Of a stretch of 38,226 nt of DNA, positions 5,401 through 28,961 are shown piece after piece. The translations under genes were made by a program, and so were the position numbers. The notes under the pieces were generated by a model that did no database searches, was not told the DNA's origin, and saw nothing but the letters and a program-made list of their open reading frames with translations. Origin of the DNA: Candidatus Nomurabacteria bacterium (GTDB lineage: Bacteria > Patescibacteriota > Minisyncoccia > Phycocordibacterales > UBA9973); contig JAQBRC010000043.1 in NCBI GenBank assembly GCA_028286705.1, positions 1-38,226 of the forward strand, written 5' to 3'. The stretch's first letter is position 1; every line of letters starts with the position of its first letter.

Positions 5401-6690
5401 ATGAAATCATCATTTCAAACTATTCTCATCATCGTATTCATCGTCGGTTTCGTCATCGCAGTTGCGGTATTCTCTGGTATCTTTTCTTCATCATCAACAA
5501 CCACTTCCACTACACCAGCAGGTTCTGTGGTGGTGTGGGGAGTACTTCCTATGTCAGAAATGCAGAAGTATGTTGATAACTTTAATAGCGAGAACTACGG
5601 CTATACGCTCAACTATACCCAGCACAGTCCTGATACGTTTTATCAGGAACTGATTACTACCCTTGCTGACGGTCAATCTCCTGATTTGGTATTAATTAAC
5701 GCCGAGCAGTATCCGCAGTTAAGCAGCAAGCTGTACACAATTCCGTTTAGTGCATATACAGAGAGAACGTTTCGCGACACTAATATTGATGGCGCACAGC
5801 TATTTCTATCTGCGACTGGTGTAGGCGCATTGCCGCTGCTGGTTGACCCAATGGTTGTCTATTACAACAAGGACATCCTTGCGTCTAAGAACTTTCTTTC
5901 TCCGCCAAGTACATGGGACGATCTTCAAGCTACTATTCCTTTGCTCACGAAGCGTGACGCTCGTCAGCAAATCACACAAAGCGCAATTGCGATGGGGCAG
6001 ACGACAAATGTCTTGCACTTTAGAGACATTCTCTCAACCTTGTTCTTGCAGACGGGAAATACCATTGTTACCAACAAGCAGGTAACACTCAATCAGGGTA
6101 CAAGTGCAACGGAGGTTCCTCCAACTGTTGAAGCCCTTAATTTTTATACTAGCTTCTCAAACCCTACAACTAACAACTATACATGGAATGGTTCGCTCTC
6201 AGAGAGCTTACAGAATTTCTTGGCAGGGAAGAGCGCCTTCTACATCGGACGTGCTAGCGAACTCTTTACCATTCAGTCTCAGAATCCGAACTTGAACTTT
6301 GACGTTACCAAGATGTTCCAGAGTTCGGCAACAGGCCGTGCCGTTACCTACGGATCTTTCATTTCAGTTGGCATCATGGCAAAAGCCCCTAATCCTGTTG
6401 CCGCATATGCTGCAGCTAGCCAGATGGCTGCTAGTACCAGCATTGATGCATTGTCTAAGCAGTTCTCATTGCCCCCGGTGCGTCGTGACTTGCTGCAGAT
6501 CTCGCAGAGCAATCCGTACGTATCAGTATTTTTCCAGTCTGCTCTATCGGCATTTTCATGGCCCGATCCAAATCCTGCTAGTACCAAGGTTATCTTCCGT
6601 GATATGATTAACAACGTAAACAGCAACACTGCTGATACGCAAACAGCCATTTATGATGCAACACGCGACCTTCAAAGTACGATTAATTAG
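5401..6690 (+). CDS. extracellular solute-binding protein (ABC-type, family 1-like) with N-terminal TM anchor
   Basis: 429 aa. It has an N-terminal TM helix plus a Ser/Thr linker, then VVVWGVLP...QSPDLVLINAEQ...VYYNKDIL...TWDDL, which is typical of MalE-like SBPs. No permease or ATPase gene is adjacent. Confidence 0.65.
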   Translation: MKSSFQTILIIVFIVGFVIAVAVFSGIFSSSSTTTSTTPAGSVVVWGVLPMSEMQKYVDNFNSENYGYTLNYTQHSPDTFYQELITTLADGQSPDLVLINAEQYPQLSSKLYTIPFSAYTERTFRDTNIDGAQLFLSATGVGALPLLVDPMVVYYNKDILASKNFLSPPSTWDDLQATIPLLTKRDARQQITQSAIAMGQTTNVLHFRDILSTLFLQTGNTIVTNKQVTLNQGTSATEVPPTVEALNFYTSFSNPTTNNYTWNGSLSESLQNFLAGKSAFYIGRASELFTIQSQNPNLNFDVTKMFQSSATGRAVTYGSFISVGIMAKAPNPVAAYAAASQMAASTSIDALSKQFSLPPVRRDLLQISQSNPYVSVFFQSALSAFSWPDPNPASTKVIFRDMINNVNSNTADTQTAIYDATRDLQSTIN

Positions 6691-7471
6691 ATACTCCAGA
6701 GTACTTGCTATTGCGCTGTTTGTCGTCACCCTCGTACTGCCTTTGAACAGGGTGCATGCTGACTCTTTCGGTTGTACCGCCAGTCTGGTTGGGGTAGATA
6801 TTGCGCGGCTGACTATCGCGTCAAATACAGAGGCGTATCGCATGAGCGGGGTAACGGTATATCTTCTTCAGGGCAAGACTACCGGTGCCGCCTCTACTGA
6901 CCTTATAGACGCATACAATGTATTCGATACTCCGGATGGCAAGGCTGTAATTTACGCCTTTCAATCGCTGAAAGCCGCAACCCCATATCGTGTTGTAGTT
7001 CTTGATGCCAACCACAAGTACATTGAGGATATTACAAGCTGTGCTTTTACAACCCGCACAGATCAAGAAGCTGTACCTGCTACTACGACAACCACAAAGA
7101 CAGTTACTCCATCTACTACGACAACTACAACCCCTGCGGCTCCCGTAGTGTCCTCAACGGCATCAACTGGCTCAGGACTTATTCCGTGCGATGGTCCTGA
7201 CTGTAACTTAAATTCCGTTATGCAGCTGGCTAACAACTTGTTGTCATTTTTCTTTAAGACACTACTGTTACCGTTGTTTGTTATTATGGTTATCTATCTT
7301 GGCTACAGCTATATTGCTGCTCAGGGAAAGCCAGGCCAGCATGCGAAGTTGGGGAGCATGGCTAAGAAAATGGTATTGGGATTGTTGCTCATGCTCTGTG
7401 CGTGGGTCATTGTCCGAACACTTTTATTCGCCCTAGGGTATCATGACGACTTATTCTTCTTCGCAAATTAA
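6653..7471 (+). CDS. VirB2/TrbC-like pilin paralog 1 (signal peptide, beta-rich domain, Thr-rich linker, C-terminal TM hairpin)
   Basis: 272 aa. Signal peptide ends LPLNRVHA. The linker is TTTTTKTVTPSTTTTTTPAAP. A CDGPDC motif follows, and the C-terminal module is LLPLFVIMVIYLGYSYIAAQGKPGQHAKLGSMAKKMVLGLLLMLCAWVIV. It overlaps the upstream gene by 38 nt, and the only in-frame ATGs are 6653 and 6656. Confidence 0.6.
   Translation: MMQHATFKVRLIRYSRVLAIALFVVTLVLPLNRVHADSFGCTASLVGVDIARLTIASNTEAYRMSGVTVYLLQGKTTGAASTDLIDAYNVFDTPDGKAVIYAFQSLKAATPYRVVVLDANHKYIEDITSCAFTTRTDQEAVPATTTTTKTVTPSTTTTTTPAAPVVSSTASTGSGLIPCDGPDCNLNSVMQLANNLLSFFFKTLLLPLFVIMVIYLGYSYIAAQGKPGQHAKLGSMAKKMVLGLLLMLCAWVIVRTLLFALGYHDDLFFFAN
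7081..7130 (+). repeat. 17-nt direct repeat inside the Thr-rich linker of paralog 1
   Basis: tactacgacaaccacaa (7081-7097) and tactacgacaactacaa (7114-7130) differ at one base, with a period of 33 nt. Confidence 0.6.
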
Positions 7472-7474
7472 TAT

Positions 7475-7927
7475 ATGATGTACAGTATGAAAAAACTTTT
7501 TATGTTCGGATTTCTAGCAATGCTCGTGTTGTCACTAGGTACGGCTGCATATGCACAGGCTCCAGATCAGACATTCGGTGGGGTTAAAACAACCGCATCA
7601 CCAGATCAGACATTTGGGGGAGTTAAAACTACTCCTGCGACAAACCAGGGTCTCAACATTCAACTTCAAAACCCTCTTAGCGGCATTAGTACTATTCCAG
7701 AAGCAATTAATAAGATATTGAGTATCGTTATTCGCATCGCATTGCCGTTGATTATCCTTGCCTTTATTTGGGCAGGCTTGAAGTTCATTTTTGCTCGCGG
7801 AAAGCCAGACCAGTTGAAGGAGGCAAAGAATATGTTTCTGTATACCATCATAGGGACGCTGCTTATTCTGGGAGCATGGACCATTACCAGTGCCATTGTT
7901 GGAACAGTTAATAGTATAGTTAAATAG
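7475..7927 (+). CDS. VirB2/TrbC-like pilin paralog 2
   Basis: 150 aa. Signal peptide ends TAAYA. A duplicated 13-aa peptide follows, and the C-terminal module is ALPLIILAFIWAGLKFIFARGKPDQLKEAKNMFLYTIIGTLLILGAWTIT. Confidence 0.65.
   Translation: MMYSMKKLFMFGFLAMLVLSLGTAAYAQAPDQTFGGVKTTASPDQTFGGVKTTPATNQGLNIQLQNPLSGISTIPEAINKILSIVIRIALPLIILAFIWAGLKFIFARGKPDQLKEAKNMFLYTIIGTLLILGAWTITSAIVGTVNSIVK
7562..7639 (+). repeat. in-frame 39-nt tandem duplication (PDQTFGGVKTTAS / PDQTFGGVKTTPA)
   Basis: Copy 1 is 7562-7600 and copy 2 is 7601-7639. Across the shared PDQTFGGVKTT stretch the differences are all synonymous third-position changes (ttc/ttt, ggt/ggg, ggg/gga, aca/act, acc/act). Confidence 0.9.
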
Positions 7928-7928
7928 T

Positions 7929-8675
7929 ATGAAAAAAATCTTTATTGCCCTTCTTGTACTTAGTTCTATATTCCTAGGAGCTCCTCGTGTTAACGCACAG
8001 GAAAGTTGTGGAGCTATTAATAGTGCCAACTACGATGCGTGCTGCAGTCCATCGCTTGATACAAGTGCGGTGAATGACAAGCAGTGTACTACGTACGAAG
8101 CATCGTTAAGCACTGCTGCTGCTCAGCAAGACGGGGAAACTCCTCCTGATTCTGCGTGTATGCCTCTAAATCAGCAGAATGAATATGCCTGTTGTCATAC
8201 AGGGGGAACGCTTAGTACCACCATGCAAAGAGCGTGTATAGACTATGAGCCTACCGTGAGTGGTCAAACAGCTCCAAGATCCAGCACTGTTAATACGGAT
8301 AACGCGTCATATAATGCAGCGCTAGCTCCAAGCACAGCTGACCAAAAGGCTGCAGCCACTTGTAGTGCCATTAAGTTCAAGACACTCCTTGATATTGCTA
8401 TTTGGGCAAAATGTATTATCGGAGCAATTATTATCCCTGGTATCTTCACATTGGCATTCGTAGTCTTTCTATGGGGTGTATTCAAATTTGTCCGCTCATC
8501 GGAAAAGACCGACAAGGAAGAAGGGAAGCAGTTTATCTATATGGGACTTATCGGATTATTTGTTATGGTATCAGTCTGGGGAATCATCCGTATCGTTACT
8601 ACCACCTTTGGTCTGGATACTGCCGTTCCACTACTCCAGACTGACCCCCTGAGCATTGATAAGGCGTCTAAGTAA
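7929..8675 (+). CDS. VirB2/TrbC-like pilin paralog 3 with duplicated Cys-rich ectodomain
   Basis: 248 aa. Signal peptide ends PRVNA. Two copies of C-x10-CC-x13-C-x2-YE follow, and the C-terminal module is FTLAFVVFLWGVFKFVRSSEKTDKEEGKQFIYMGLIGLFVMVSVWGIIRI. Confidence 0.65.
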   Translation: MKKIFIALLVLSSIFLGAPRVNAQESCGAINSANYDACCSPSLDTSAVNDKQCTTYEASLSTAAAQQDGETPPDSACMPLNQQNEYACCHTGGTLSTTMQRACIDYEPTVSGQTAPRSSTVNTDNASYNAALAPSTADQKAAATCSAIKFKTLLDIAIWAKCIIGAIIIPGIFTLAFVVFLWGVFKFVRSSEKTDKEEGKQFIYMGLIGLFVMVSVWGIIRIVTTTFGLDTAVPLLQTDPLSIDKASK

Positions 8676-8750
8676 TCCACTGCTAGACAAAGCGTTTCGT
8701 GGTATACTTTTTATACCTGTACTTAACCAGGAATAAGCAAATAATTAATT

Positions 8751-9167
8751 ATGAAAAAAGCAATTTTTAATGTTAGTGCACTCTCTACTCTTCTTGTACC
8801 CGCTGTAGCTTTGGCTCAGAACCCAAATTTTAACTATATTAACTCATTCGTTGGTCAGGGTCTTGTATACCTTCGTCTAGCAGTGACTGTCCTCACTATC
8901 CTGATGACAGTGTACTTCTTGTACAACGTATTGCGTTTTATCATGAACACAGACGCAACTAAGGTTGCTGATCTTCGCAAGGCGATGATCAACGGCTTGA
9001 TCGGCTTGTTTGTTGCAACTGCTGTATGGGGAATCATCCGCCTAGCAGGAAGCGTAACTGGCGTTGATACTATGTCTGGCTCACCAGCAGTTACTTGTCC
9101 TCCAGGATTGAAATACAATCAGGCGGCAGGTACTTGCGGCACATCTACATCAGTCCTAGGAATATAG
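8751..9167 (+). CDS. VirB2/TrbC-like pilin paralog 4
   Basis: 138 aa. Signal peptide ends AVALA. The module is LTILMTVYFLYNVLRFIMNTDATKVADLRKAMINGLIGLFVATAVWGIIRL. A C-terminal tail carries 2 Cys. TGGTATACT sits at 8700-8708 upstream. Confidence 0.6.
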   Translation: MKKAIFNVSALSTLLVPAVALAQNPNFNYINSFVGQGLVYLRLAVTVLTILMTVYFLYNVLRFIMNTDATKVADLRKAMINGLIGLFVATAVWGIIRLAGSVTGVDTMSGSPAVTCPPGLKYNQAAGTCGTSTSVLGI

Positions 9168-9174
9168 TGTTGTC

Positions 9175-9519
9175 ATGATCGCCTATGCCGCCACACAAAC
9201 AGGGGACGCGCTAGACGTTACGCTTTCTAGGGTTAATGCAAACATCGTCAATCCGGCAATCGAGTTTGCATTCATCGTTGCGTTCGTTATATTCATCTGG
9301 GGTGTGTTTCAGTTCATCCGAAACGCTGGCGATAAGGATAAGCGTCAGGAAGGCAAGGATCATATGCTTTGGGGAATTGTGGGGTTTGTGATTATGTTTA
9401 GCGTCTTTGGTCTCATCACACTTCTAGGCAATACGCTTGGACTTAGTGGTCTCACCATTAACGGCAAACAACAAACGTTCGTTCCTCCGTCAGTTACTGA
9501 ACTGCAATATCCTAAATAG
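9175..9519 (+). CDS. VirB2/TrbC-like pilin paralog 5 (no obvious signal peptide)
   Basis: 114 aa. The module is FAFIVAFVIFIWGVFQFIRNAGDKDKRQEGKDHMLWGIVGFVIMFSVFGLITL. TATAGT (9163-9168, overlapping the stop of paralog 4) lies 6 nt before the ATG. Confidence 0.6.
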   Translation: MIAYAATQTGDALDVTLSRVNANIVNPAIEFAFIVAFVIFIWGVFQFIRNAGDKDKRQEGKDHMLWGIVGFVIMFSVFGLITLLGNTLGLSGLTINGKQQTFVPPSVTELQYPK

Positions 9520-9528
9520 GCAAAGAAA

Positions 9529-9565
9529 AAAGACCTTCGGTATATACCGAAGGTCTTTGGTTTTT
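9529..9565. terminator. bidirectional rho-independent terminator
   Basis: AAAGACCTTCGGTAT/ATACCGAAGGTCTTT forms a perfect palindromic stem (9529-9558). A-run lies upstream and GGTTTTT downstream. It sits between convergent genes. Confidence 0.85.
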
Positions 9566-9579
9566 GTGCAAAGAACAGT

Positions 9580-10287
9580 TTAGTTAAAAGGAGTGTTTGC
9601 TAGCTCTATGTCGCAGTCTGTGTCTGTGACAATAATAGCGTATGATCCGTCACCAATTCTTTCTTGAACAACGTTTACATGTCTTGGGGGCTTAATAATA
9701 TGTCCGTACATTATGCCTTGATATTTACATGTATCCTTTGCCTTGAAGTGTCGTGTTGTACCCGCATATACGGTTGTATATTTAGGATACGGATCACTGG
9801 AGGTTTCTGAGGCTTTCATTTCTGTGGTTTTTGGAGGCAAACTCGGGGTAGGAACTTTTTCCTTACCGTTGTATACGTCATATCCCCACAGGCAAACTCG
9901 CCACACGATTACAATGGATGCAATAATCGCTAACACTAATAAGGTGTTGCACCATAATGCAGACCAGCTTTTAATCCCAAAATCCATTTTCCATGAAAAG
10001 GAAAACAAATCTCTTGGAAAAAACATCCAGATTAGAACCACTGCTAGTATTAGAAGTAGTGCCCATAGGATGTACCAGCCGAATAAGTGCCATAGCATAA
10101 CGCTTCCCCCCAATACGATTATTAATAGGAAGATTAAAAGATAAGGAATAATCCCTAAATTTTTGAACGTTTGCGCTCGCTTCCGTAACATCTTTCTTCC
10201 AAGGAAGAGTAGAATGAGAATTAAAGCGCAAAAGATGAATGGAGGAGTATTAATCGTTGCGAAAATTTTTTCAAAAAAATTAAGCAT
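9580..10287 (-). CDS. hypothetical 4-TM membrane protein with about 95-aa C-terminal soluble beta-rich domain
   Basis: The start is set at ATG 10287-10285 (MLNFFEKIF...) rather than 10362. It overlaps the upstream stop as ATGCTTAA and is preceded by AGAAGGGGGG. Four hydrophobic helices are followed by ...YTTVYAGTTRHFKAKDTCKYQGIMYGHIIKPPRHVNVVQERIGDGSYAIIVTDTDCDIEL. Confidence 0.55.
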   Translation of the reverse strand: MLNFFEKIFATINTPPFIFCALILILLFLGRKMLRKRAQTFKNLGIIPYLLIFLLIIVLGGSVMLWHLFGWYILWALLLILAVVLIWMFFPRDLFSFSWKMDFGIKSWSALWCNTLLVLAIIASIVIVWRVCLWGYDVYNGKEKVPTPSLPPKTTEMKASETSSDPYPKYTTVYAGTTRHFKAKDTCKYQGIMYGHIIKPPRHVNVVQERIGDGSYAIIVTDTDCDIELANTPFN

Positions 10288-11329
10288 TTTTAATTTCCCC
10301 CCTTCTTTTAAATGGCCGTCTTCTTTGATCAGTACCATCATCTGCAAAATCGGTAATCTCAAGATTTGCTTCTACCAAGTCTTGCATAGGACTTGCGTGG
10401 TTGCCACCTAAATACAAACGGTCTAGTCCTTTTTTCCCGCCCCAGGCTGCATTGATTTTAGCTAAGCCGTTAGCAGATTGTTTAACCATTTTGATTTTGA
10501 TGTCAGCGTCTCTTTCGCGGAATTTAAGTTCTGTGTCATTCTGTGCATCTTGAAGTTTGTTAAGCTCAAGGCCAGTTTGTTTAGTGAATACCGCTGCTTT
10601 AGATTTATTTTCTTCTTTTGCAATATCTTGCTCAGAATCAAGAAAACCCTTTGAGCGTTCCGCAATATCAACTGCGATAACTGCCACTTTGCATACATTA
10701 AATCCTACGGCACCAAACTCTTTCTTGTTCAAAGCATCTATTCTGTCCCAGACATCGTCTTTTACAGTAGGGTCGTCATTGGTATTAATAGCTCTATTTT
10801 GTATAAAACTATGTTTATTTCCCCAGAGACGAAATGCTTCAACCACAAAGGATGTGCCATACACTAAGAAATCTTCAACCGTCTTTGTTAAAAGAGGATG
10901 CAGAATTTCAAATGAAATTTGAAGGATCATTTCGATACTCGCACCGTCGTTTGTTGTAATTTCTACAACTGCTGGGTGTGACTCAACTTTATTTAAGTGG
11001 TCGACAAACTCTTGGCGAGTGCCAATTATTAAATTAGAGGTGAGAAATTTTCGATAAGATTTGTATTTCTGCTTACCGTGGTCTGGATTACCAGGATTAT
11101 CAATTGTCGCACTCTTTGCTGTTTCTTCGTTAGAAACGAGCTCTGTAAATTCTAGTTTGGTCAAACCTTTTCCGAATGGCCATCCTAATATTATCAGGGA
11201 GGGAGGATTCTTTGTTGGGTCCGTCGTATTCTTTGGATCATACATAAAGGAATCAATCTCCTTGTCAAATTTGGTGGTGATGTACCAGTTCCCGGCTTTG
11301 GGAGAAAGGAACGTGATTAATTTTGGCAT
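10280..11329 (-). CDS. SPFH/band-7 (stomatin-prohibitin-flotillin)-like protein, no TM segment
   Basis: 349 aa. The pattern read by eye is ...ITTNDGASIEMILQISFEILHP...FVVEAFRLWG...FGAVGFNVCKVAVIAVDIAERSKGF, followed by a charged coiled-coil stretch (EQDIAKEENKSKAAVFTKQTGLELNKLQDAQNDTELKFRERDADIKIKM) and a basic tail. The family call is tentative. Confidence 0.45.
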   Translation of the reverse strand: MPKLITFLSPKAGNWYITTKFDKEIDSFMYDPKNTTDPTKNPPSLIILGWPFGKGLTKLEFTELVSNEETAKSATIDNPGNPDHGKQKYKSYRKFLTSNLIIGTRQEFVDHLNKVESHPAVVEITTNDGASIEMILQISFEILHPLLTKTVEDFLVYGTSFVVEAFRLWGNKHSFIQNRAINTNDDPTVKDDVWDRIDALNKKEFGAVGFNVCKVAVIAVDIAERSKGFLDSEQDIAKEENKSKAAVFTKQTGLELNKLQDAQNDTELKFRERDADIKIKMVKQSANGLAKINAAWGGKKGLDRLYLGGNHASPMQDLVEANLEITDFADDGTDQRRRPFKRRGEIKNA

Positions 11330-18284: not shown

Positions 18285-19064
18285 ATGCCAAAACAATGGA
18301 GTGTACAGGAGAGGCAAAAACATTTTGACCAGCTCAATACAATGTATTTAGATGAGAACAAAACGATCGGAGAGATTGGGAGGCTTTTGAGCGTGAGTGA
18401 CAAGACGATATATAAGCGACTTCTTACATTGGGAATACAAACTAATCGTGCTCAGAAGAAAAGTTATTCGAATCAACAAACAGCAATACTTATACCGACA
18501 GAATATTCGGACGATCTGGCGGAACTTTTCGGAATTTTACTGGGAGATGGATCGCTTTCTCCCACACAAGTTGTCATAACCTTGGGCAATAAGGAAAGGA
18601 GCTATGCGGAATACGTTAAGAATCTAATGCAGAGAGTCTTTAACGTTGCTCCAAAGATAGCCATAAGAAAACTAGGATATATCGATCTATTCCTGGGTTC
18701 AGTTGTGGTTAGTCGATGGCTTGTAAGTGAAGGATTAGTCTACAACAAAGTTAAATCTCAGATTGATGTTCCTCCATGGGTCTTTACTTCAAAAAGCTTT
18801 CAGAGGGCTTTCCTGAGAGGGTTTTTTGATACTGACGGGTCTGTTTACCGGCTTCGTTATGGCATACAACTTTCTTTTACAAATCACTCAGCCCCCTTGC
18901 TTGTATCTTTACAAAGAATGTTAAATACACTAGAATACCAAGCGTCGAACGTAAGTTCGTCAAAAGTGTACGTTACTCAAAAGAGCGCAATATTGAGATT
19001 TTTTAAGGAGATTGCTCCGAAAAATCAAAAGCATATTGATCGCTTTAAAGAATTTCTCGCATGA
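18285..19064 (+). CDS. LAGLIDADG-family homing endonuclease (double-motif, free-standing) with N-terminal HTH-like region
   Basis: 259 aa. The two LAGLIDADG motifs are LAELFGILLGDGSL and RAFLRGFFDTDGSV. The N-terminal segment KTIGEIGRLLSVSDKTIYKRL looks like an HTH. Confidence 0.85.
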   Translation: MPKQWSVQERQKHFDQLNTMYLDENKTIGEIGRLLSVSDKTIYKRLLTLGIQTNRAQKKSYSNQQTAILIPTEYSDDLAELFGILLGDGSLSPTQVVITLGNKERSYAEYVKNLMQRVFNVAPKIAIRKLGYIDLFLGSVVVSRWLVSEGLVYNKVKSQIDVPPWVFTSKSFQRAFLRGFFDTDGSVYRLRYGIQLSFTNHSAPLLVSLQRMLNTLEYQASNVSSSKVYVTQKSAILRFFKEIAPKNQKHIDRFKEFLA

Positions 19065-24509: not shown

Positions 24510-25328
24510 ATGGACATAACTAAAAAAACCCTCGGAACACTTTTTATTATAGCGATGCTTTTTGCGTCACCTGCTTTTGCTGCAACTGACACTTCTTCGA
24601 ACTGGGGAGGATATGTAGTGCAGAATGGCGCGTATACTGGGGTGAGCGGTACATTTGTTATGCCAGAATTAAGTTATTCTTCTAGCCTCGCCTCAAATGC
24701 TACATGGGTTGGTATTGGGGGTCGTACAACTTCTGACCTTATCCAGGCGGGAGTGTATGAGATTGCTGATGCCAATGGTGCCACATATCAGGCGTGGTAT
24801 GAAATGTTGCCTGATGACTCCGTGCCTGTTGATTTGCCTGTGCATCCAAGGGATTCGGTAAGTGTGGCAATTCTTGAAACCTCAACAGATGTTTGGAATA
24901 TTGTTATTACCAATAACACAACCAAACAGCAGTTTGCTAAAACGGTGCAATACCACTCGCTTCATTCCTCTGCAGAATGGATTCAGGAACGGCCCCAGGT
25001 TAATGGAACACTTCCTCCGTTATCAGGATTTACTCCAGTTAAGTTTACAAATGCTTATGCTGTTGAGAATGGGCAGCGTCTAACGCTAAATCAAATGAAT
25101 CCCATTAGCATTAGCCTGCTGGATACCCAGCCAAATATTGCCCTTGCCGTCCCTTCTATTGTCGGTTCTGACAATACGAGCTTTACTGTATTCCGCACTA
25201 GCGCTGTTGCTTCTGCCGCTACACCAATTGATTCTCATGTACCTCAGTATCTTCTGCGTCGTACGGGACATGATATTTTGCCGTCAATACCAGGATGGAA
25301 CTGGACCATATTGTTTCAGCCGAGATAG
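24510..25328 (+). CDS. secreted glutamic peptidase, family G1 (eqolisin / Peptidase_A4-like)
   Basis: 272 aa. Signal peptide ends SPAFA. Then SSNWGGYVV...TWVGIGG...LIQAGV (catalytic Gln context)...AWYEMLP...SSAEWIQERP (catalytic Glu context). Confidence 0.7.
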   Translation: MDITKKTLGTLFIIAMLFASPAFAATDTSSNWGGYVVQNGAYTGVSGTFVMPELSYSSSLASNATWVGIGGRTTSDLIQAGVYEIADANGATYQAWYEMLPDDSVPVDLPVHPRDSVSVAILETSTDVWNIVITNNTTKQQFAKTVQYHSLHSSAEWIQERPQVNGTLPPLSGFTPVKFTNAYAVENGQRLTLNQMNPISISLLDTQPNIALAVPSIVGSDNTSFTVFRTSAVASAATPIDSHVPQYLLRRTGHDILPSIPGWNWTILFQPR

Positions 25329-25391
25329 TATTGATAAAAAATTTATGGAATGCTCAGTTTTTATTGAGTAGGGAATTGCTATACCATGGAA

Positions 25392-28300
25392 ATGAAACTA
25401 TCATTTCCAAAAGTATTTTTTATTATAAGTAGTGTTATTTTTTTAAGCATTGTATCGCATGTGCTATGCGCGCATGCAGAAGAGCTACGAGCTGTTCCTT
25501 CAGACCTGACGTTGAATCCGGATATAACGTATACAATTTCTGGTACCATCTATGTTAATCATGACTCAACATTAACTGTTCCTGCGGGTACCACTATTCT
25601 TTTCGACAAGGCAGCTCGATTGGTTGTGTATGGGAAATTAGATGTTAAGGGAACTACTCAGGACCACGTAGTGTTTGCTAGGGGGAATATGGCAGCAGCT
25701 CGATTTGCCATACCCGCAGAAGTTGAAACAGCACAGGTTGTGCCGTTAGAAATTGATTCCTTCTCCGAAACCCCTGAGGTTAATCCTGTTGAGGTACCAG
25801 CATTGAATGTTTCTATGGGAACGGAAATGGTAACAGTGGATGATAAAGCCGGCAGCATAGTATTTATGAATGGCTCGCTGCCGTCCTCTTTGAAATATTT
25901 GGATATATCAGACTTCAGCATTGCTACATTGGTTGATACATCAGCAATAGTAACGATGGATCATATGACGTTTAAAAATTGCGCTACTGGAATAGAGAAT
26001 ACTTTTGGGACCGTGAATCTCACGCATAGTACTTTTATTGATACGGCTATCCCAGGACAAATTAGCGTTAATGCAGTATTTGAGCACTCCGATACCACAT
26101 TTTCTGGCACGGGATTTAAAGGATGGAATTATGCTGGGAAGGTGGCGGGAGAATTTCATTTGCGTTCCAAAGATGGCCAATATTATGCTGCTGGACTAGA
26201 GGTTATAAATGGCGGTTCTTTATATTTTAATTTTGGAACAACGCTTTTTATTCCAATTGGGATTGCCATAGAGGTTCATGAGTATGGGAAGCTCTTCATA
26301 AACGGAACAGCCTTGTCGCCAGTAACTATATACGGTGAGGGGAATTGTCTGCTTAACACGCCTGCTGTTAATTATGCATTTCAGTCTACTGGCTCTATAG
26401 CCCATGCAAATTTTCATAATTTGTGTACAGGTATTAAATCGGTTAATGCAACAGTTACCGTAACCAACAGCACCTTCAAAGACATTAAAGGTTCCGCAAT
26501 TCATTTTGAGCAGGCAGGGTTACTTACTATTACCGATACTGATATTAGCAAAAGTGGCATAGCTATAGAATTGGTAGATAGTGCGAATATAAAAAATATT
26601 TCCCAAAATACATTTCATGATAATAAGGTCGGTGTTTCCTTGAATAATCTCTATCCGAATGCAATTATAAAAAATAATAGATGGGGCAGTAACAGTGGTC
26701 CAACGATAGCGAGTAACCCTACAGGGACAGGAGATTCTATCCTGGTTAGCGGTGTTCCAGAAGTTATCTATCGACCATGGTTAGGAATGGAAGATGGTGA
26801 ACCTACTACACCAGATAATCCTCCTGAAGAACCTCCTGTAGAAGCTAGAGGCCACGACCCCATAATTATTGTTCCCGGTATTACCGGCTCTGTATTAAGA
26901 AAAGACTATGATGATAATGGAGAGTTGTGGCCCAATCTTACTAAACTTGTAGCGAACCTAGCCGATAGCCATCTTGATGTCTTGGCCTTACTTCAGACAG
27001 GCAAGCCGAGCGCTGTACGTCCAATGGTTGTAGGAGATATTATTCGTAGTGTTAGTTCTGTAGATATATTCGGCGGACTTATTGGCAACTTCAATAATAA
27101 TGGATATGTTGAAGGTACCAATCTCTTTGTCTTGCCGTACGATTGGCGGTTCAGTAATGCTGAGAATCAAAGTAAATTGAAGGATCTTATTGCGACCGCA
27201 TTAGAAAAAAGCGGTAAAAGCAAAGTAAATATTATCGCGCATAGTATGGGAGGATTATTGGTAAAGGAATATCTTGCAGAGAACCAAAATGCACCTGTAG
27301 CGCACATCTTCAATATTGCTGTTCCACATCTTGGAGCGCCTAAAACGTTTAAGACCTTAATGTATGGTGACGATATGGGATTTAAATTCTCATTAACTTC
27401 AGCTCTGAAGGTACCGGTATTAAATGAAAATAGAGTAAAGATGATCACCCAGAACATGCCCTCAGTATATGAATTGCTACCAAGTAAAAAGTATATAGAT
27501 TTACTAGGTCCATATATTGACGACCGAACTCAAGGGTTAATGATGGATATAGAAAATACTCAGAAACTGATGGTTGCTGACGGCAGAAATGCAAAAATGT
27601 TTCCCTTCGCTCAGGCGCTTCACAATAGGATAGATAACATAACGGGTTCATCTATTCCTACGTATAATTTTGCAGGATGTGGTTCAACAGAAACAGTAGT
27701 TGGCTTTACGTTAACCAAAGAACAATCATTAACCTTAACTGGATTCAAACTTGTACCTGAACACCGTTTCAGATATGGTGCCGGTGATGGGGTGGTTCCT
27801 GTTAGAAGTGCCGTTGCTGTTGACGGAGCTCATAACTATTATGTTACTACTGGCTCTCATGGCACCATGCCTTCTCTTGCTGCTATACAGGATGCCATTC
27901 TTGCTATTGCTGGAGGGCGATCTGTTTCTGGACTGTCGGATAGTGCGTCTAGTTGCAATGTACCAGGTACTATTGTTGAAGTTCATAGTCCTGTCTCGCT
28001 TGATATTTATGATCAGCAAGGCAATCATACGGGGCTAACAAATGAAGGGGAAATAGAATATGGTATTCCGAATGTTCAATACGATGTTATCAATGACGAG
28101 AAGTCCGCATTCTTGCCTGTGGGTATCAATTACACCGTGGTTAATCATGCGGAAGCTGCGGGAACATATGATATGTATGTTACTCATCTAAACCAAGAAG
28201 ACACCGTAGACCATCAGTTATATTATCATGCAGTACCACTGGTAAATGAAAAAAGTACCAGCACGTTTGCAATTAATACCAATAATATAAACCCTGTCAT

Positions 28301-28961
28301 TTCAATTGATGATAATGGGGATACTGTTGCAGATCGCACGGTTAATTCATCGTCATCTCTTGATGCGTCTAAAGTGCAAGACAGCATTGCCCCTATAACA
28401 AACGCAAGTGTTGACGATAGCCTTGTTGCGCTTATCGCAACTGATGATAATGCTGGTGTGTTGAATACAAAGTATTCAACTGATAATGTTGTATGGAATC
28501 TTTATACTAAACCATTTAAGGCTCTAGTTGGTACTACTGTATATTTTGTGTCGATTGATAATGCGGGGAATACTGAAGACATCAAACAGGTTGTTGTGGG
28601 AGCGCCGGTATCAAGTAATGGTGGAAATTCAGTAACACCCCCTTCGTCTACTGTAGGTACTGCTACAAATATTCCAGTAAAGACACCAAATGTTCCAGAG
28701 AAAATTCCTGAAAAAACTATAGATGATGATAAGAAAGAGAAGGAGATTCATATTGCTTCTGATAACATCTCAAGAACATATCTTACCGCCCCTGCCCCCG
28801 ATGAGGGAACGGTGATGAGCGACAATCAAATAACTAAAAACAGTCTATTGGCGAGTCTTGCAACAGTGGCAGGAATAGGTAGTACAGCCGTTATTATTAT
28901 AGGGGTTCTGACAGTAGTAGGGATAGGGTTATTTGTAGTATTCAGCAAAAAAGGCAGCTAA
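25392..28961 (+). CDS. large cell-surface protein: signal peptide, parallel beta-helix repeats, LCAT/PGAP1-like alpha/beta-hydrolase (lipase/acyltransferase), Ig/Fn3-like modules, C-terminal TM anchor
   Basis: PbH1-like repeats (e.g. VTVTNSTFKDIKGSAIHFEQ..ITDTDISKSGIAIELV..ISQNTFHDNKVGVSL). Lipase core: DPIIIVPGITGS, LPYDWR (YDWR at 27138-27149), nucleophile elbow IIAHSMGGLL (Ser codon 27243-27245), GAGDGVVPVRSA and TGSHGTMP. C-terminal hydrophobic anchor is at about 28845-28958. The start is probably ATG 25392 (MKLSFPK...); 25386 is also possible. Confidence 0.65.
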   Translation: MKLSFPKVFFIISSVIFLSIVSHVLCAHAEELRAVPSDLTLNPDITYTISGTIYVNHDSTLTVPAGTTILFDKAARLVVYGKLDVKGTTQDHVVFARGNMAAARFAIPAEVETAQVVPLEIDSFSETPEVNPVEVPALNVSMGTEMVTVDDKAGSIVFMNGSLPSSLKYLDISDFSIATLVDTSAIVTMDHMTFKNCATGIENTFGTVNLTHSTFIDTAIPGQISVNAVFEHSDTTFSGTGFKGWNYAGKVAGEFHLRSKDGQYYAAGLEVINGGSLYFNFGTTLFIPIGIAIEVHEYGKLFINGTALSPVTIYGEGNCLLNTPAVNYAFQSTGSIAHANFHNLCTGIKSVNATVTVTNSTFKDIKGSAIHFEQAGLLTITDTDISKSGIAIELVDSANIKNISQNTFHDNKVGVSLNNLYPNAIIKNNRWGSNSGPTIASNPTGTGDSILVSGVPEVIYRPWLGMEDGEPTTPDNPPEEPPVEARGHDPIIIVPGITGSVLRKDYDDNGELWPNLTKLVANLADSHLDVLALLQTGKPSAVRPMVVGDIIRSVSSVDIFGGLIGNFNNNGYVEGTNLFVLPYDWRFSNAENQSKLKDLIATALEKSGKSKVNIIAHSMGGLLVKEYLAENQNAPVAHIFNIAVPHLGAPKTFKTLMYGDDMGFKFSLTSALKVPVLNENRVKMITQNMPSVYELLPSKKYIDLLGPYIDDRTQGLMMDIENTQKLMVADGRNAKMFPFAQALHNRIDNITGSSIPTYNFAGCGSTETVVGFTLTKEQSLTLTGFKLVPEHRFRYGAGDGVVPVRSAVAVDGAHNYYVTTGSHGTMPSLAAIQDAILAIAGGRSVSGLSDSASSCNVPGTIVEVHSPVSLDIYDQQGNHTGLTNEGEIEYGIPNVQYDVINDEKSAFLPVGINYTVVNHAEAAGTYDMYVTHLNQEDTVDHQLYYHAVPLVNEKSTSTFAINTNNINPVISIDDNGDTVADRTVNSSSSLDASKVQDSIAPITNASVDDSLVALIATDDNAGVLNTKYSTDNVVWNLYTKPFKALVGTTVYFVSIDNAGNTEDIKQVVVGAPVSSNGGNSVTPPSSTVGTATNIPVKTPNVPEKIPEKTIDDDKKEKEIHIASDNISRTYLTAPAPDEGTVMSDNQITKNSLLASLATVAGIGSTAVIIIGVLTVVGIGLFVVFSKKGS

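What the first reader, a model, noticed from the sequence alone, without database searches (positions are those of the whole stretch)
6653..9519. Five tandem VirB2/TrbC-like pilin paralogs with unrelated ectodomains and no assembly machinery nearby
Seen in sequence: five same-strand ORFs (272, 150, 248, 138 and 114 aa) are separated by gaps of 3, 1, 75 and 7 nt.

All five end in the same module:
- A hydrophobic helix.
- A short charged loop: AAQGKPGQHAKLG / FARGKPDQLKEAK / VRSSEKTDKEEGK / MNTDATKVADLRK / RNAGDKDKRQEGK.
- A second hydrophobic helix ending in an aromatic-rich patch: CAWVIVRT / GAWTITSA / SVWGIIRI / AVWGIIRL / SVFGLITL.

The N-terminal parts are completely different:
- Paralog 1 has a beta-rich domain plus a poly-Thr linker.
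- Paralog 2 has a duplicated 13-mer peptide.
- Paralog 3 has a duplicated 4-Cys module.
- Paralog 4 has almost nothing N-terminal, but carries a C-terminal Cys pair.
- Paralog 5 has no signal peptide.

Established knowledge: a two-helix hairpin with a basic loop behind a signal peptide is the architecture of conjugative T4SS pilins, and such pilin-like genes are frequently annotated in CPR genomes. Inference: this is a cassette of alternative or co-assembled surface-filament subunits that display different tips. That is a plausible host-attachment organ for an episymbiont. No VirB4/B6/D4, relaxase, or PilB/C/D gene lies within 38 kb, so how these subunits are assembled remains open.
Basis: partly seen in the sequence, partly recalled or inferred. 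Interest (0 to 1): 0.7.

Follow-up and report, generated by a model that had tools for sequence, protein, structure and literature searches.

The report
Tandem VirB2-like pilin genes, Patescibacteria

Summary
Five same-strand ORFs (272, 150, 248, 138, 114 aa; gaps 3, 1, 75, 7 nt) each end in a homologous two-helix hairpin. All five hit Pfam PF18895 T4SS_pilin; P1, P2 and P5 pass the curated cut-off, and P2 also passes PF04956 TrbC/VirB2.

The window is a chromosomal contig of a Nomurabacteria/Paceibacteria-type genome. No VirB4, VirB6, VirD4, relaxase or type IV pilus gene was found in its 38 kb.

Tandem arrays of 2-11 divergent VirB2-like pilins are already published for Patescibacteria: 441 arrays, about 25% mean identity, and essential in Southlakia epibionticum. 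The finding is therefore a new member of a known kind.

What I add:
- The array is an old, vertically inherited block, MBL-GyrA-MTase-SBP-pilins, present in all 24 related loci examined; 18 hold its start and end, none with T4SS machinery within 10 kb.
- The five genes have one-to-one positional orthologues. This argues against interchangeable cassettes and for co-assembly.
- The hairpins are conserved, while the ectodomains at positions 1 and 3 are gained, lost and shuffled.
- A conserved promoter-like motif precedes genes 4-5.

Filament formation, dependence on a T4SS encoded elsewhere, and a role in host contact remain inference.

The parts
5401..6690 (+). Membrane-anchored family-1 solute-binding protein (SBP) gene. 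Its 3' end overlaps the P1 start by 38 nt, so it is a possible operon partner of the array.
   Evidence: PF13416 and PF01547 match. Distant matches to sugar-binding SBPs in the PDB. No ABC permease or ATPase gene in the window. An SBP gene lies directly upstream of the array in all 23 related loci that hold the array start.
6653..7471 (+). P1: signal peptide (aa 1-36), FN3/Ig-like beta-sandwich (aa 39-133; nt 6767-7051), Thr-rich linker (aa 140-178), conserved GLIPCDGxxC motif and pilin hairpin (aa 185-260; nt 7205-7432).
   Evidence: PF18895 26.9 bits against a cut-off of 26.6. AF2 model. Foldseek matches to FnIII and Ig domains, E 3e-5. Alignment of homologues.
7475..7927 (+). P2: signal peptide, duplicated 13-residue repeat (aa 30-55) and pilin hairpin (aa 74-149; nt 7694-7921).
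   Evidence: PF18895 44.1 bits and PF04956 TrbC 35.2 bits, both above their cut-offs. AF2 hairpin with pLDDT above 90. Orthologues are named 'pilin' or 'TrbC/VirB2 family protein' by NCBI.
7929..8675 (+). P3: signal peptide, two 4-Cys modules (aa 27-53 and 77-103; nt 8007-8237) and pilin hairpin (aa 150-229; nt 8376-8615).
   Evidence: PF18895 20.9 bits, below the cut-off. Paralogous to P5 at E 4e-14. Internal repeat scores 55 against 25 +/- 5 for shuffles.
8700..8731 (+). Conserved motifs in the P3-P4 gap: an extended -10-like TGGTATACT (8700-8708) and a small CCTG...CAGG inverted repeat (8716-8731). Candidate internal promoter and 5' UTR element for P4-P5.
   Evidence: TGnTATAMT and CCTG..CAGG are kept in the equivalent gap of all 7 gaps compared (the window and L001, L002, L003, L005, L020, L022), although the flanking proteins have diverged to about 40-50% identity. 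Function is inferred, not shown.
8751..9167 (+). P4: signal peptide, almost no ectodomain, pilin hairpin (aa 33-103; nt 8847-9059) and a C-terminal tail with a Cys pair (C116, C129).
   Evidence: PF18895 22.5 bits, below the cut-off. Paralogous to P3 at E 4e-10. 88% identical to the L002 orthologue.
9175..9519 (+). P5: no signal peptide, a short acidic N-tail beginning M-x-AYA, and a pilin hairpin (aa 18-92; nt 9226-9450).
   Evidence: PF18895 42.1 bits. NF045849 38.8 bits against a cut-off of 40. The 30 aligned orthologues all lack a hydrophobic leader, and the orthologues listed are mostly about 109-116 aa (range 81-141). An in-frame stop at 9157-9159 rules out an upstream start.
9529..9558 (.). 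Bidirectional intrinsic terminator (13-bp stem) that closes the array and the convergent downstream genes.
   Evidence: Terminator scan and the sequence itself.

Best explanation
This is a chromosomal array of five anciently diverged VirB2/TrbC-superfamily (Pfam PF18895) pilin-like genes. It sits in a Nomurabacteria/Paceibacteria-type Patescibacterium and belongs to the kind already catalogued across that phylum.

Shown here:
- All five proteins share a homologous two-helix hairpin with a short charged loop.
- P1-P4 carry Sec-type leaders. P5 has none.
- The hairpins are conserved, while the extracytoplasmic N-terminal domains are variable.
- The five genes are one-to-one positional orthologues across a deeply conserved MBL-GyrA-MTase-SBP-array block.
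- No T4SS machinery lies within 10 kb in 21 of the relatives.

Inferred mechanism:
1. The proteins insert into the cytoplasmic membrane with both termini outside and the basic loop inside.
2. A patescibacterial monoderm-type T4SS (VirB4/VirB6/VirB3/VirB8), encoded elsewhere in the genome, extracts and assembles them into one surface structure. That structure is either a pilus or a short stalk.
3. The small, well-conserved P4 and P5, which have their own promoter-like element, form the bulk of it.
4. P1-P3 are minor subunits. They display fast-evolving binding modules for contact with the host cell: an FN3/Ig-like sandwich on a Thr-rich stalk, Cys-rich modules and short repeats.
For: Family assignment:
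- PF18895 hits on all five proteins, and a PF04956 hit on P2.
- Paralogy among the five.
- AF2 hairpin model.
- NCBI names orthologues 'pilin' or 'TrbC/VirB2 family protein'.
- The module profile matches 48,444 clusters at 50% identity, E up to 1e-3.

Known kind: 441 arrays of 2-11 pilins with mean identity 25% (PMC12102498). The array is essential in Southlakia epibionticum (PMC10633639; PMC12857230).

Co-assembly rather than alternatives:
- One-to-one orthologues in the same order.
- The block is kept in 24 loci, with GyrA identity down to 52% and SBP identity down to 27%.
- Gene spacing is tight, and a single strong terminator follows P5.
- Natural fusions of 2-16 hairpin modules in one polypeptide exist in the family.

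Core versus minor subunits:
- Against L002, identity is 88% for P4 and 78% for P5, but 45-59% for P1-P3.
- Against L002, the P1-P3 hairpin modules are 78-89% identical and their ectodomains 37-38%.
- The position-1 protein ranges from 128 to 572 aa, while the last-position protein stays at 81-125 aa.
- Ectodomain modules are shuffled between positions.
- A conserved extended -10 motif precedes P4.

Machinery elsewhere: VirB4 was found in 2,417 of 3,035 Patescibacteria assemblies, including Nomurabacteria examples. Pilins are near virB4 in only 1,135 of 1,948 assemblies.
Against: - No VirB4 or VirB6 could be located for this organism or its close relatives, because the window is a whole 38-kb contig. 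T4SS dependence is therefore borrowed from the literature.
- Similarity to bona fide VirB2 is only at profile level. Foldseek against the PDB is not significant (T-pilus 8exh_A, E 3.2, TM 0.59). A family HMM finds no PDB chain at E up to 10. tblastn finds nothing in 72,556 plasmids.
- P3 and P4 fall below the Pfam cut-off.
- No T4SS pilus has been visualised in any Patescibacterium. Monoderm T4SSs normally lack pili (PMC12102498, PMC12857230).
- The major/minor subunit assignment rests on conservation and a promoter-like motif, not on expression data.
- Ectodomains of 100-400 aa on a VirB2-type subunit have no structural precedent.
Confidence: 0.55

Rival explanations
1. The hairpins are membrane-embedded anchors or channel components and do not form a filament. 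They never leave the membrane. They oligomerise side by side, as a ring or platform in or next to a monoderm T4SS channel, or they simply anchor surface adhesin domains. No extended pilus is built.
For: - Patescibacterial VirB4 nests in the monoderm MPF-FATA class, whose systems lack pili (PMC12102498).
- The best NCBIfam matches are to the Mollicutes ICE 'Mbov_0395 family pilin-like conjugal transfer protein' and a pLS20 conjugation membrane protein, not to Gram-negative pilins.
- Single polypeptides with 2-16 tandem hairpins exist. These are easier to reconcile with side-by-side membrane packing.
- There is no machinery nearby.
- The structural match to the T-pilus is not significant.
Against: - P2 passes the curated TrbC/VirB2 threshold.
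- The hairpin with a basic loop and both termini outside is exactly the pre-assembly state of VirB2.
- A simple anchor would not need five co-conserved paralogues, two of which (P4, P5) have essentially no ectodomain to anchor.
Confidence: 0.25
2. The array is an alternative-subunit (antigenic or host-range variation) cassette. The five genes are interchangeable major pilins used one at a time, as proposed for the VirB2 paralogue arrays of Bartonella and Anaplasma.
For: - The paralogues are tandem, divergent and have different exposed parts.
- The literature suggests this versatility might aid adaptation to different host strains (PMC12102498).
- The ectodomains evolve fast.
Against: - One-to-one positional orthologues persist over deep divergence, with no recent duplication or conversion. 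Paralogues are 12-43% identical, whereas orthologues are 45-88% identical.
- The genes are tightly coupled in one transcription unit, with no invertible or recombination elements noted.
- P4 and P5 are as conserved as housekeeping neighbours.
Confidence: 0.1
3. The array works with the SBP as a contact or uptake device, largely independent of a T4SS. The orphan membrane-anchored solute-binding protein and the hairpin proteins form one functional unit, for example a host-contact conduit or receptor platform for scavenging host metabolites.
For: - The SBP stop overlaps the P1 start by 38 nt.
- SBP-then-array order is kept in all 23 related loci that hold the array start, down to 27% SBP identity. 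One of these is a record named Andersenbacteria.
- There is no ABC permease or ATPase in the window.
- Reviews speculate about uptake through the patescibacterial T4SS or pilus (PMC12857230; PMC11665869).
Against: - GyrA and the methyltransferase are conserved in the same block. The adjacency may therefore reflect general synteny rather than function.
- No case was found where the SBP stays with the array while other neighbours change.
- There is no precedent for an SBP partnering VirB2-like proteins.
Confidence: 0.08
4. The similarity is a chance product of hydrophobic composition. The profile hits reflect generic transmembrane bias and the ORFs are unrelated small membrane proteins.
For: - Two of the five PF18895 scores are below the gathering threshold.
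- Helical hairpins carry little structural information.
Against: - Family-level hhalign gives E 4.7e-8, and paralogue E-values reach 4e-14.
- Specific motifs are conserved, and each gene has dozens of orthologues carrying precomputed PF18895 hits.
- There are no matches to phage holin or other membrane families.
Confidence: 0.02

Closest known systems
VirB2-like pilin arrays of Patescibacteria (Quinonero-Coronel et al. 2025, PMC12102498: 441 arrays of 2-11 genes in 383 assemblies)
   Same: Tandem PF18895/PF04956 genes in a Patescibacterium. Paralogue identity is about 25% here (12-43%), matching the published mean of 25% and maximum of 54%. The location is chromosomal and no relaxase is present.
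   Different: This array is detached from virB4. It is embedded in a deeply conserved gyrA-methyltransferase-SBP block. Its positional orthology, ectodomain turnover and internal promoter-like motif were not described in that survey.
Pilin series in the essential T4SS cluster of Southlakia epibionticum ML1, SEML1_0006-0019 (Wang et al. 2023, PMC10633639; reviewed in PMC12857230)
   Same: Several sequence-divergent, structurally conserved VirB2-like pilins encoded side by side in a monoderm epibiont, with a proposed host-interface role.
   Different: In Southlakia the pilins lie inside the T4SS cluster, next to VirB4/VirB6/VirB8-like genes, and are shown essential by Tn-seq. Here no machinery lies within 38 kb and nothing is tested experimentally. 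The class also differs: Saccharimonadia there, Paceibacteria-type here.
Canonical conjugative pilins VirB2 (Agrobacterium T-pilus, PDB 8EXH) and TrbC (RP4), Pfam PF04956
   Same: A signal peptide followed by two hydrophobic helices joined by a short basic loop. P2 passes the PF04956 gathering score (35.2 against 27.9 bits).
   Different: There is no significant sequence or structure match to solved pilins. The proteins carry large N-terminal ectodomains, and one paralogue lacks a leader. They are not linked to virB genes. The envelope is monoderm. Cyclisation and lipid-bound polymerisation are unknown.
VirB2 paralogue arrays of Bartonella and Anaplasma phagocytophilum (cited in PMC12102498)
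   Same: Tandem amplification and diversification of VirB2 genes, interpreted as variation of host-exposed surfaces.
   Different: Those arrays are lineage-specific amplifications inside virulence T4SS loci of diderm intracellular pathogens. Here the five copies are ancient, positionally orthologous and probably non-redundant.
Mbov_0395 family pilin-like conjugal transfer protein of Mollicutes ICEs (NCBIfam NF045849)
   Same: A small two-helix membrane protein of a monoderm T4SS. It is the best NCBIfam match for four of the five proteins (P5: 38.8 bits, E 5.5e-10).
   Different: All scores are below the family cut-off of 40 bits. That family is a single-copy ICE component with no ectodomain.

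Membership tests
VirB2/TrbC pilin superfamily (Pfam PF18895 T4SS_pilin / PF04956 TrbC) | Profile match at or above the curated gathering score | tested here: met
   PF18895 scores: P1 26.9, P2 44.1 and P5 42.1 bits, against a gathering score of 26.6. P2 also scores 35.2 bits on PF04956 (gathering score 27.9). P3 (20.9) and P4 (22.5) are below the cut-off. They are tied in by paralogy: P3-P5 E 4e-14, P4-P3 E 4e-10, and hhalign of the P2 family against the P5 family gives E 4.7e-8.
VirB2/TrbC pilin superfamily (Pfam PF18895 T4SS_pilin / PF04956 TrbC) | Two hydrophobic alpha-helices joined by a short charged (net basic) loop | tested here: met
   Hydropathy finds two segments in each protein. The AF2 model of P2 has helices 74-106 and 111-149 with pLDDT above 90; P1 has helices 185-222 and 229-260. 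Each loop carries 3-5 K/R residues.
VirB2/TrbC pilin superfamily (Pfam PF18895 T4SS_pilin / PF04956 TrbC) | N-terminal cleavable Sec signal peptide on the propilin | tested here: inconclusive
   P1-P4 have an N-terminal hydrophobic segment followed by an AXA-type site (VHA/D, AYA/Q, VNA/Q, ALA/Q), read from sequence and hydropathy. No SignalP was available. P5 and all 30 aligned orthologues lack a leader.
VirB2/TrbC pilin superfamily (Pfam PF18895 T4SS_pilin / PF04956 TrbC) | Structural similarity to solved conjugative pilins | tested here: inconclusive
   Foldseek against the PDB puts T-pilus VirB2 8exh_A at rank 6, with E 3.2 and TM (target) 0.59. No hit reaches E 1e-3, because hairpins are uninformative. 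A profile search of PDB sequences finds nothing at E up to 10.
VirB2/TrbC pilin superfamily (Pfam PF18895 T4SS_pilin / PF04956 TrbC) | Genetic linkage to the T4SS assembly genes (virB4, virB6, virB3, virB8) | tested here: not met
   None was found in the 38-kb window. None lies within up to 10 kb of the array in 21 related loci. Whether the genome encodes them elsewhere could not be tested.
VirB2/TrbC pilin superfamily (Pfam PF18895 T4SS_pilin / PF04956 TrbC) | Polymerisation into an extracellular pilus | not testable with these tools
   This needs multimer modelling, cryo-ET or biochemistry. No T4SS pilus has yet been seen in Patescibacteria (PMC12857230).
Patescibacterial VirB2-like pilin array (as defined in PMC12102498) | Two or more pilin genes in tandem, or separated by at most one non-pilin gene | tested here: met
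   Five consecutive genes with gaps of 3, 1, 75 and 7 nt. There is no sixth copy in the window.
Patescibacterial VirB2-like pilin array (as defined in PMC12102498) | Low identity between the paralogues of one array (published mean 25%, maximum 54%) | tested here: met
   Hairpin modules are 12-43% identical pairwise.
Patescibacterial VirB2-like pilin array (as defined in PMC12102498) | Host genome is a Patescibacterium | tested here: met
   The closest loci are Candidatus Nomurabacteria and Paceibacterota MAGs, with GyrA 94% and SBP 80% identical.
Patescibacterial VirB2-like pilin array (as defined in PMC12102498) | Genome also carries a patescibacterial-clade VirB4 | not testable with these tools
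The paper's Table S1 lists VirB4 = Yes for Nomurabacteria and Andersenbacteria examples.
Type IV pilins (T4P, PilA-like) | Class III signal peptide (G/FTLIE-type prepilin peptidase site) followed by a single N-terminal hydrophobic helix | tested here: not met
   No such motif is present in any of the five sequences, which instead have two C-terminal helices. There are no Pfam pilin or PilB/C/D hits in the window.
Mbov_0395 family pilin-like conjugal transfer protein (NCBIfam NF045849) | Score at or above the curated cut-off (40 bits) | tested here: not met
   P5 38.8, P2 25.9, P4 17.7 and P3 14.6 bits. The relationship is close but below the threshold.

The most novel reading that the evidence does not exclude
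The gyrA-methyltransferase-SBP-pilin block is an ancient, self-contained functional unit, conserved from Nomurabacteria-type genomes to a record named Andersenbacteria. In this reading, five non-redundant VirB2-like subunits build an ordered heteropolymer: a P4/P5 shaft carrying P1-P3 adhesin-bearing minor subunits. This would be a pilus architecture unknown for T4SS pili, which are homopolymers with a VirB5 tip. It would work together with the translationally coupled orphan solute-binding protein as a host-contact and nutrient-capture organ. It might also be assembled independently of the distant VirB4 machine.
Probability: 0.12. Interest if true: 0.7.

Novelty: new member of a known kind. 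Interest (0 to 1): 0.35.

Why it matters
Patescibacteria are obligate epibionts, and how they touch and feed on their hosts is largely unknown. Their T4SS and its pilin series are essential in the one species tested, but nobody knows what structure the pilins build.

This locus does not open a new category. It does give a clean comparative example:
- A stable five-subunit set with positional orthologues.
- Two conserved ectodomain-poor subunits and three fast-evolving subunits with ectodomains, two of them with modular, shuffled domains.
- No adjacent machinery.

That pattern favours a heteromeric surface structure over antigenic-variation cassettes. It also nominates specific subunits for structural and localisation work in cultivable relatives: P4/P5 as the core and P1-P3 as host-binding parts.

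Tried and rejected
Locating the assembly machinery failed.
- The one genome-contig scan went on the SBP, to get taxonomy and synteny.
- The one metagenome scan went on the P5 family.
- All three word-index protein searches returned only orthologues of the same block.
- As a result I had no clade VirB4 sequence to search with. Walking along the roughly 630-kb contigs at 10 kb per look-up was not feasible.
- The paper's Table S3 is cut in the stored supplement, and the accessions I had are absent from it.

Other attempts that led nowhere:
- Fetching R388, to build a bona fide VirB2 profile for hhalign, failed because the accession is not in the collection.
- tblastn of P2 against plasmids found no match.
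- hmmsearch of the P2 family against PDB sequences found none.
- Foldseek of the P2 model gave only non-significant hairpin matches.
- PADLOC and PHROGs scans gave nothing relevant.

Readings considered and rejected:
- Type IV (PilA-type) pilins, because there is no class III leader.
- Holin or phage membrane proteins, because there are no PHROG hits.
- A mobile element or ICE remnant, because the neighbours are housekeeping genes, synteny is stable, there is no relaxase or integrase, and GC content is unremarkable.
- An upstream start or frameshift that would give P5 a leader, because an in-frame stop lies at 9157-9159 and orthologue N-termini are conserved.

Full report
**1. Observation**

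The ORF listing reproduces the five + strand ORFs exactly: P1 6653-7471 (272 aa), P2 7475-7927 (150), P3 7929-8675 (248), P4 8751-9167 (138) and P5 9175-9519 (114). The gaps are 3, 1, 75 and 7 nt. The quoted loop and helix-end peptides are present.

Each protein has two hydrophobic segments near its C-terminus. P1-P4 also have an N-terminal one.

The modules are related beyond chance.
- phmmer and blastp give P1-P2 at E about 1e-10, P3-P5 at 4e-14, P3-P4 at 4e-10 and P4-P5 at 2e-6. The two subgroups are bridged by P2-P5 at 4e-5.
- A profile-profile comparison of the P2 orthologue family (58 sequences) with the P5 family (30 sequences) gives probability 94.9%, E 4.7e-8, over 66 hairpin columns.
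- Module identities are 12-43%.
- There is no sixth copy in the window.

The N-terminal descriptions all hold.
- P1: a beta-sandwich at residues 39-133 (pLDDT 85-92), then a disordered Thr-rich stretch. Foldseek matches FnIII and Ig-type domains at E 3e-5 to 1e-3.
- P2: PDQTFGGVKTT appears twice, 13 residues apart.
- P3: two 4-Cys modules with identical spacing score 55, against 25 +/- 5 for shuffles.
- P4: a C-terminal Cys pair.
- P5: no leader. An in-frame stop at 9157-9159 excludes a longer ORF. All 30 aligned orthologues lack a leader; the orthologues listed are mostly 109-116 aa.

**2. What the proteins are**

All five hit Pfam PF18895 (T4SS_pilin) over the hairpin. P1 (26.9 bits), P2 (44.1) and P5 (42.1) pass the gathering score of 26.6. 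P3 (20.9) and P4 (22.5) do not. P2 also passes PF04956 TrbC/VirB2, at 35.2 against 27.9 bits.

The best NCBIfam match is the Mollicutes ICE 'Mbov_0395 family pilin-like conjugal transfer protein'. It stays just under its cut-off, with P5 at 38.8 against 40 bits.

AlphaFold2 on the P2 family alignment gives a confident helical hairpin, with helices 74-106 and 111-149 and pLDDT above 90.

The link to solved pilins is weak.
- Foldseek lists the Agrobacterium T-pilus VirB2 (8exh_A) at rank 6, but with E 3.2.
- A family HMM finds no PDB chain at E up to 10.
- tblastn finds nothing in 72,556 plasmids.

The assignment to the VirB2/TrbC superfamily therefore rests on curated profiles, not on structure.

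Orthologues in public data already carry the NCBI names 'pilin' and 'TrbC/VirB2 family protein'. A profile of the five modules matches 48,444 clusters (50% identity) at E up to 1e-3.

**3. Context**

Pfam scans of the 33 non-shadow ORFs of at least 110 aa in the window show a housekeeping chromosome. The genes include GyrA, a methyltransferase, an SBP, RbfA, IF-2, ClpB, GltX, a Pif1-type helicase and others. There is no VirB4, VirB6, VirD4, relaxase or PilB/C/D.

The closest genomes are Candidatus Nomurabacteria and Paceibacterota MAGs, with GyrA up to 94% and SBP up to 80% identical.

I examined 24 related loci, all from the same block.
- Seven came from species-representative genomes.
- Five came from look-ups of pilin orthologues (L020-L023 and L026). 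These include a 629-kb JGI contig, a 353-kb NCBI contig and a record named Andersenbacteria.
- Twelve long loci came from a metagenome scan. Two of them lie on contigs of 637 and 624 kb.

The gene order is the same in every one: MBL-fold hydrolase, GyrA, methyltransferase, SBP, then the pilin genes. Where the contig runs on, variable minus-strand genes and RbfA-IF-2 follow. The 18 loci that hold both the start and the end of the array have 4-8 pilin genes. This order holds while GyrA identity falls to 52% and SBP identity to 27%.

No T4SS gene was seen within the flanks of up to 10 kb in the 21 loci checked for this. The large unassigned ORFs in those flanks are LigA, an amidase, a PriA-like protein, or have no Pfam match.

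A 13-bp-stem bidirectional terminator (9529-9558) closes the array.

**4. Orthology and evolution**

Each of P1-P5 has a best-matching orthologue at the same position in L001-L005. The array is therefore five old lineages, not a recent amplification.

Identities to the nearest full locus (L002) are 45% for P1, 59% for P2, 47% for P3, 88% for P4 and 78% for P5. For comparison, the SBP is 80% and GyrA 94% identical.

Within P1-P3 the hairpin is 78-89% identical to L002, but the ectodomain only 37-38%.

The position-1 protein has no ectodomain in L001 and L003 (132-135 aa). It has one beta-domain here and in L002, and several domains in L004 (572 aa) and L005 (427 aa). Across all loci it spans 128-572 aa, whereas the last gene stays at 81-125 aa.

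Some P1-type proteins (P0106-P0108) carry a Cys-rich module like that of P3, either instead of the beta-domain or in addition to it. Ectodomain modules are therefore shuffled between positions.

The 75-nt P3-P4 gap keeps an extended -10-like TGnTATAMT and a CCTG..CAGG inverted repeat in all seven gaps compared (the window and six related loci). This suggests an internal promoter serving P4-P5.

**5. What is already known**

- Quinonero-Coronel et al. 2025 (PMC12102498) found VirB4 in 2,417 of 3,035 Patescibacteria assemblies. They found VirB2-like pilins, using PF04956 and PF18895 among other profiles, in 1,948 assemblies that also had VirB4.
- In that survey the pilin gene lay near virB4 in only 1,135 of those assemblies. 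They also reported 441 arrays of 2-11 pilin genes with mean identity 25%.
- Wang et al. 2023 (PMC10633639) showed that the pilin series in the Southlakia epibionticum T4SS cluster is essential.
- A 2025 review (PMC12857230) discusses the possibility of a pilus in this monoderm group, and of uptake through it.
- Table S1 of the survey lists VirB4 = Yes for the Nomurabacteria and Andersenbacteria examples I saw.

The finding is thus a further example of a described phenomenon.

**6. Mechanism**

Shown:
- Five homologous hairpin proteins.
- Leaders on four of them.
- Variable extracytoplasmic N-terminal domains.
- Positional orthology.
- A compact transcription unit with one terminator.
- Detachment from T4SS genes.

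Inferred:
- The proteins insert with both termini outside and the basic loop in the cytoplasm, following the positive-inside rule. P5's short acidic N-tail can be translocated without a leader.
- A T4SS encoded elsewhere extracts and assembles them.
- P4/P5 are the bulk subunits, and P1-P3 are minor subunits that present binding modules to the host.

The positional orthology argues for co-assembly of different modules. So do the natural fusions of 2-16 modules in single polypeptides elsewhere in the family.

I put the family identity at about 0.9. The full mechanism, including a T4SS-built surface polymer, is about 0.4-0.5.

The main rival, at 0.25, is that the hairpins never form a filament and act as a membrane platform or channel part. 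That would fit monoderm T4SSs, and the multi-hairpin fusions fit it as well. The alternative-cassette reading (0.1) is disfavoured by orthology. An SBP-coupled device (0.08) cannot be separated from plain synteny with the present data.

**7. Verdict**

The window is a whole contig and the collection scans were exhausted. The literature makes a distant T4SS the default expectation.

Interest is 0.35. The novelty rating is 'new member of a known kind'.

Noticed in passing
window 5401-6690 (and the equivalent gene in 23 related loci: L001-L007, L020-L023, L026, L032, L033, L035, L039, L046, L050, L051, L055, L056, L064, L065): An orphan, membrane-anchored family-1 solute-binding protein gene overlaps the first pilin gene by 38 nt. 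It precedes the array in every related locus that holds the array start, down to 27% SBP identity. No ABC permease or ATPase gene lies in the window. The adjacency may be functional coupling or just conserved synteny with gyrA and the methyltransferase.
   Followed up: partly
window 8700-8731: The P3-P4 intergenic gap keeps an extended -10-like TGnTATAMT motif and a CCTG..CAGG inverted repeat in all seven gaps compared (the window and six related loci), despite strong divergence of the flanking genes. It is a candidate internal promoter and leader for the last two pilin genes.
   Followed up: partly
window 9175-9195 (P5 N-terminus) and alignment A4: P5 and its orthologues have no hydrophobic leader, yet nearly all begin M-x(1-4)-AYA (AHA, AFA or AYG in a few). 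This resembles the AXA end of a signal peptide and may be a relic of a lost leader or a short processed propeptide.
   Followed up: partly
proteins P0109-P0258; L026 9824-11584; L025 10001-15328: Many family members are single polypeptides with 2-16 tandem hairpin modules, for example P0119 (1775 aa, 16 modules), P0121 (1147 aa, 11) and the 527-aa, 6-module gene in the Andersenbacteria-named array. P0119 sits in an archaeal-looking context with ribosomal protein L39e and Cas4. A related cluster member is labelled Altiarchaeales.
   Followed up: partly
window 9580-10362 (-) and 10280-11329 (-): A convergent, overlapping, fast-evolving gene pair with no Pfam, NCBIfam or PADLOC match. One is a multi-TM protein with a C-terminal soluble domain; the other is a 349-aa soluble protein. 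For the 349-aa gene, sequence-detectable positional equivalents exist in L004, L005, L020 and L022. From memory the pair resembles an NfeD/SPFH-type pair; this was not tested.
   Followed up: partly
window 18285-19064 (+): A free-standing LAGLIDADG-domain ORF (PF14528) lies directly downstream of clpB.
   Followed up: no
window 25386-28961 (+): A 1191-aa protein combines a right-handed beta-helix with an LCAT-like alpha/beta-hydrolase (lipase/acyltransferase) domain. It lies next to a Peptidase A4 gene (24510-25328) and may be another host-directed surface enzyme.
   Followed up: no
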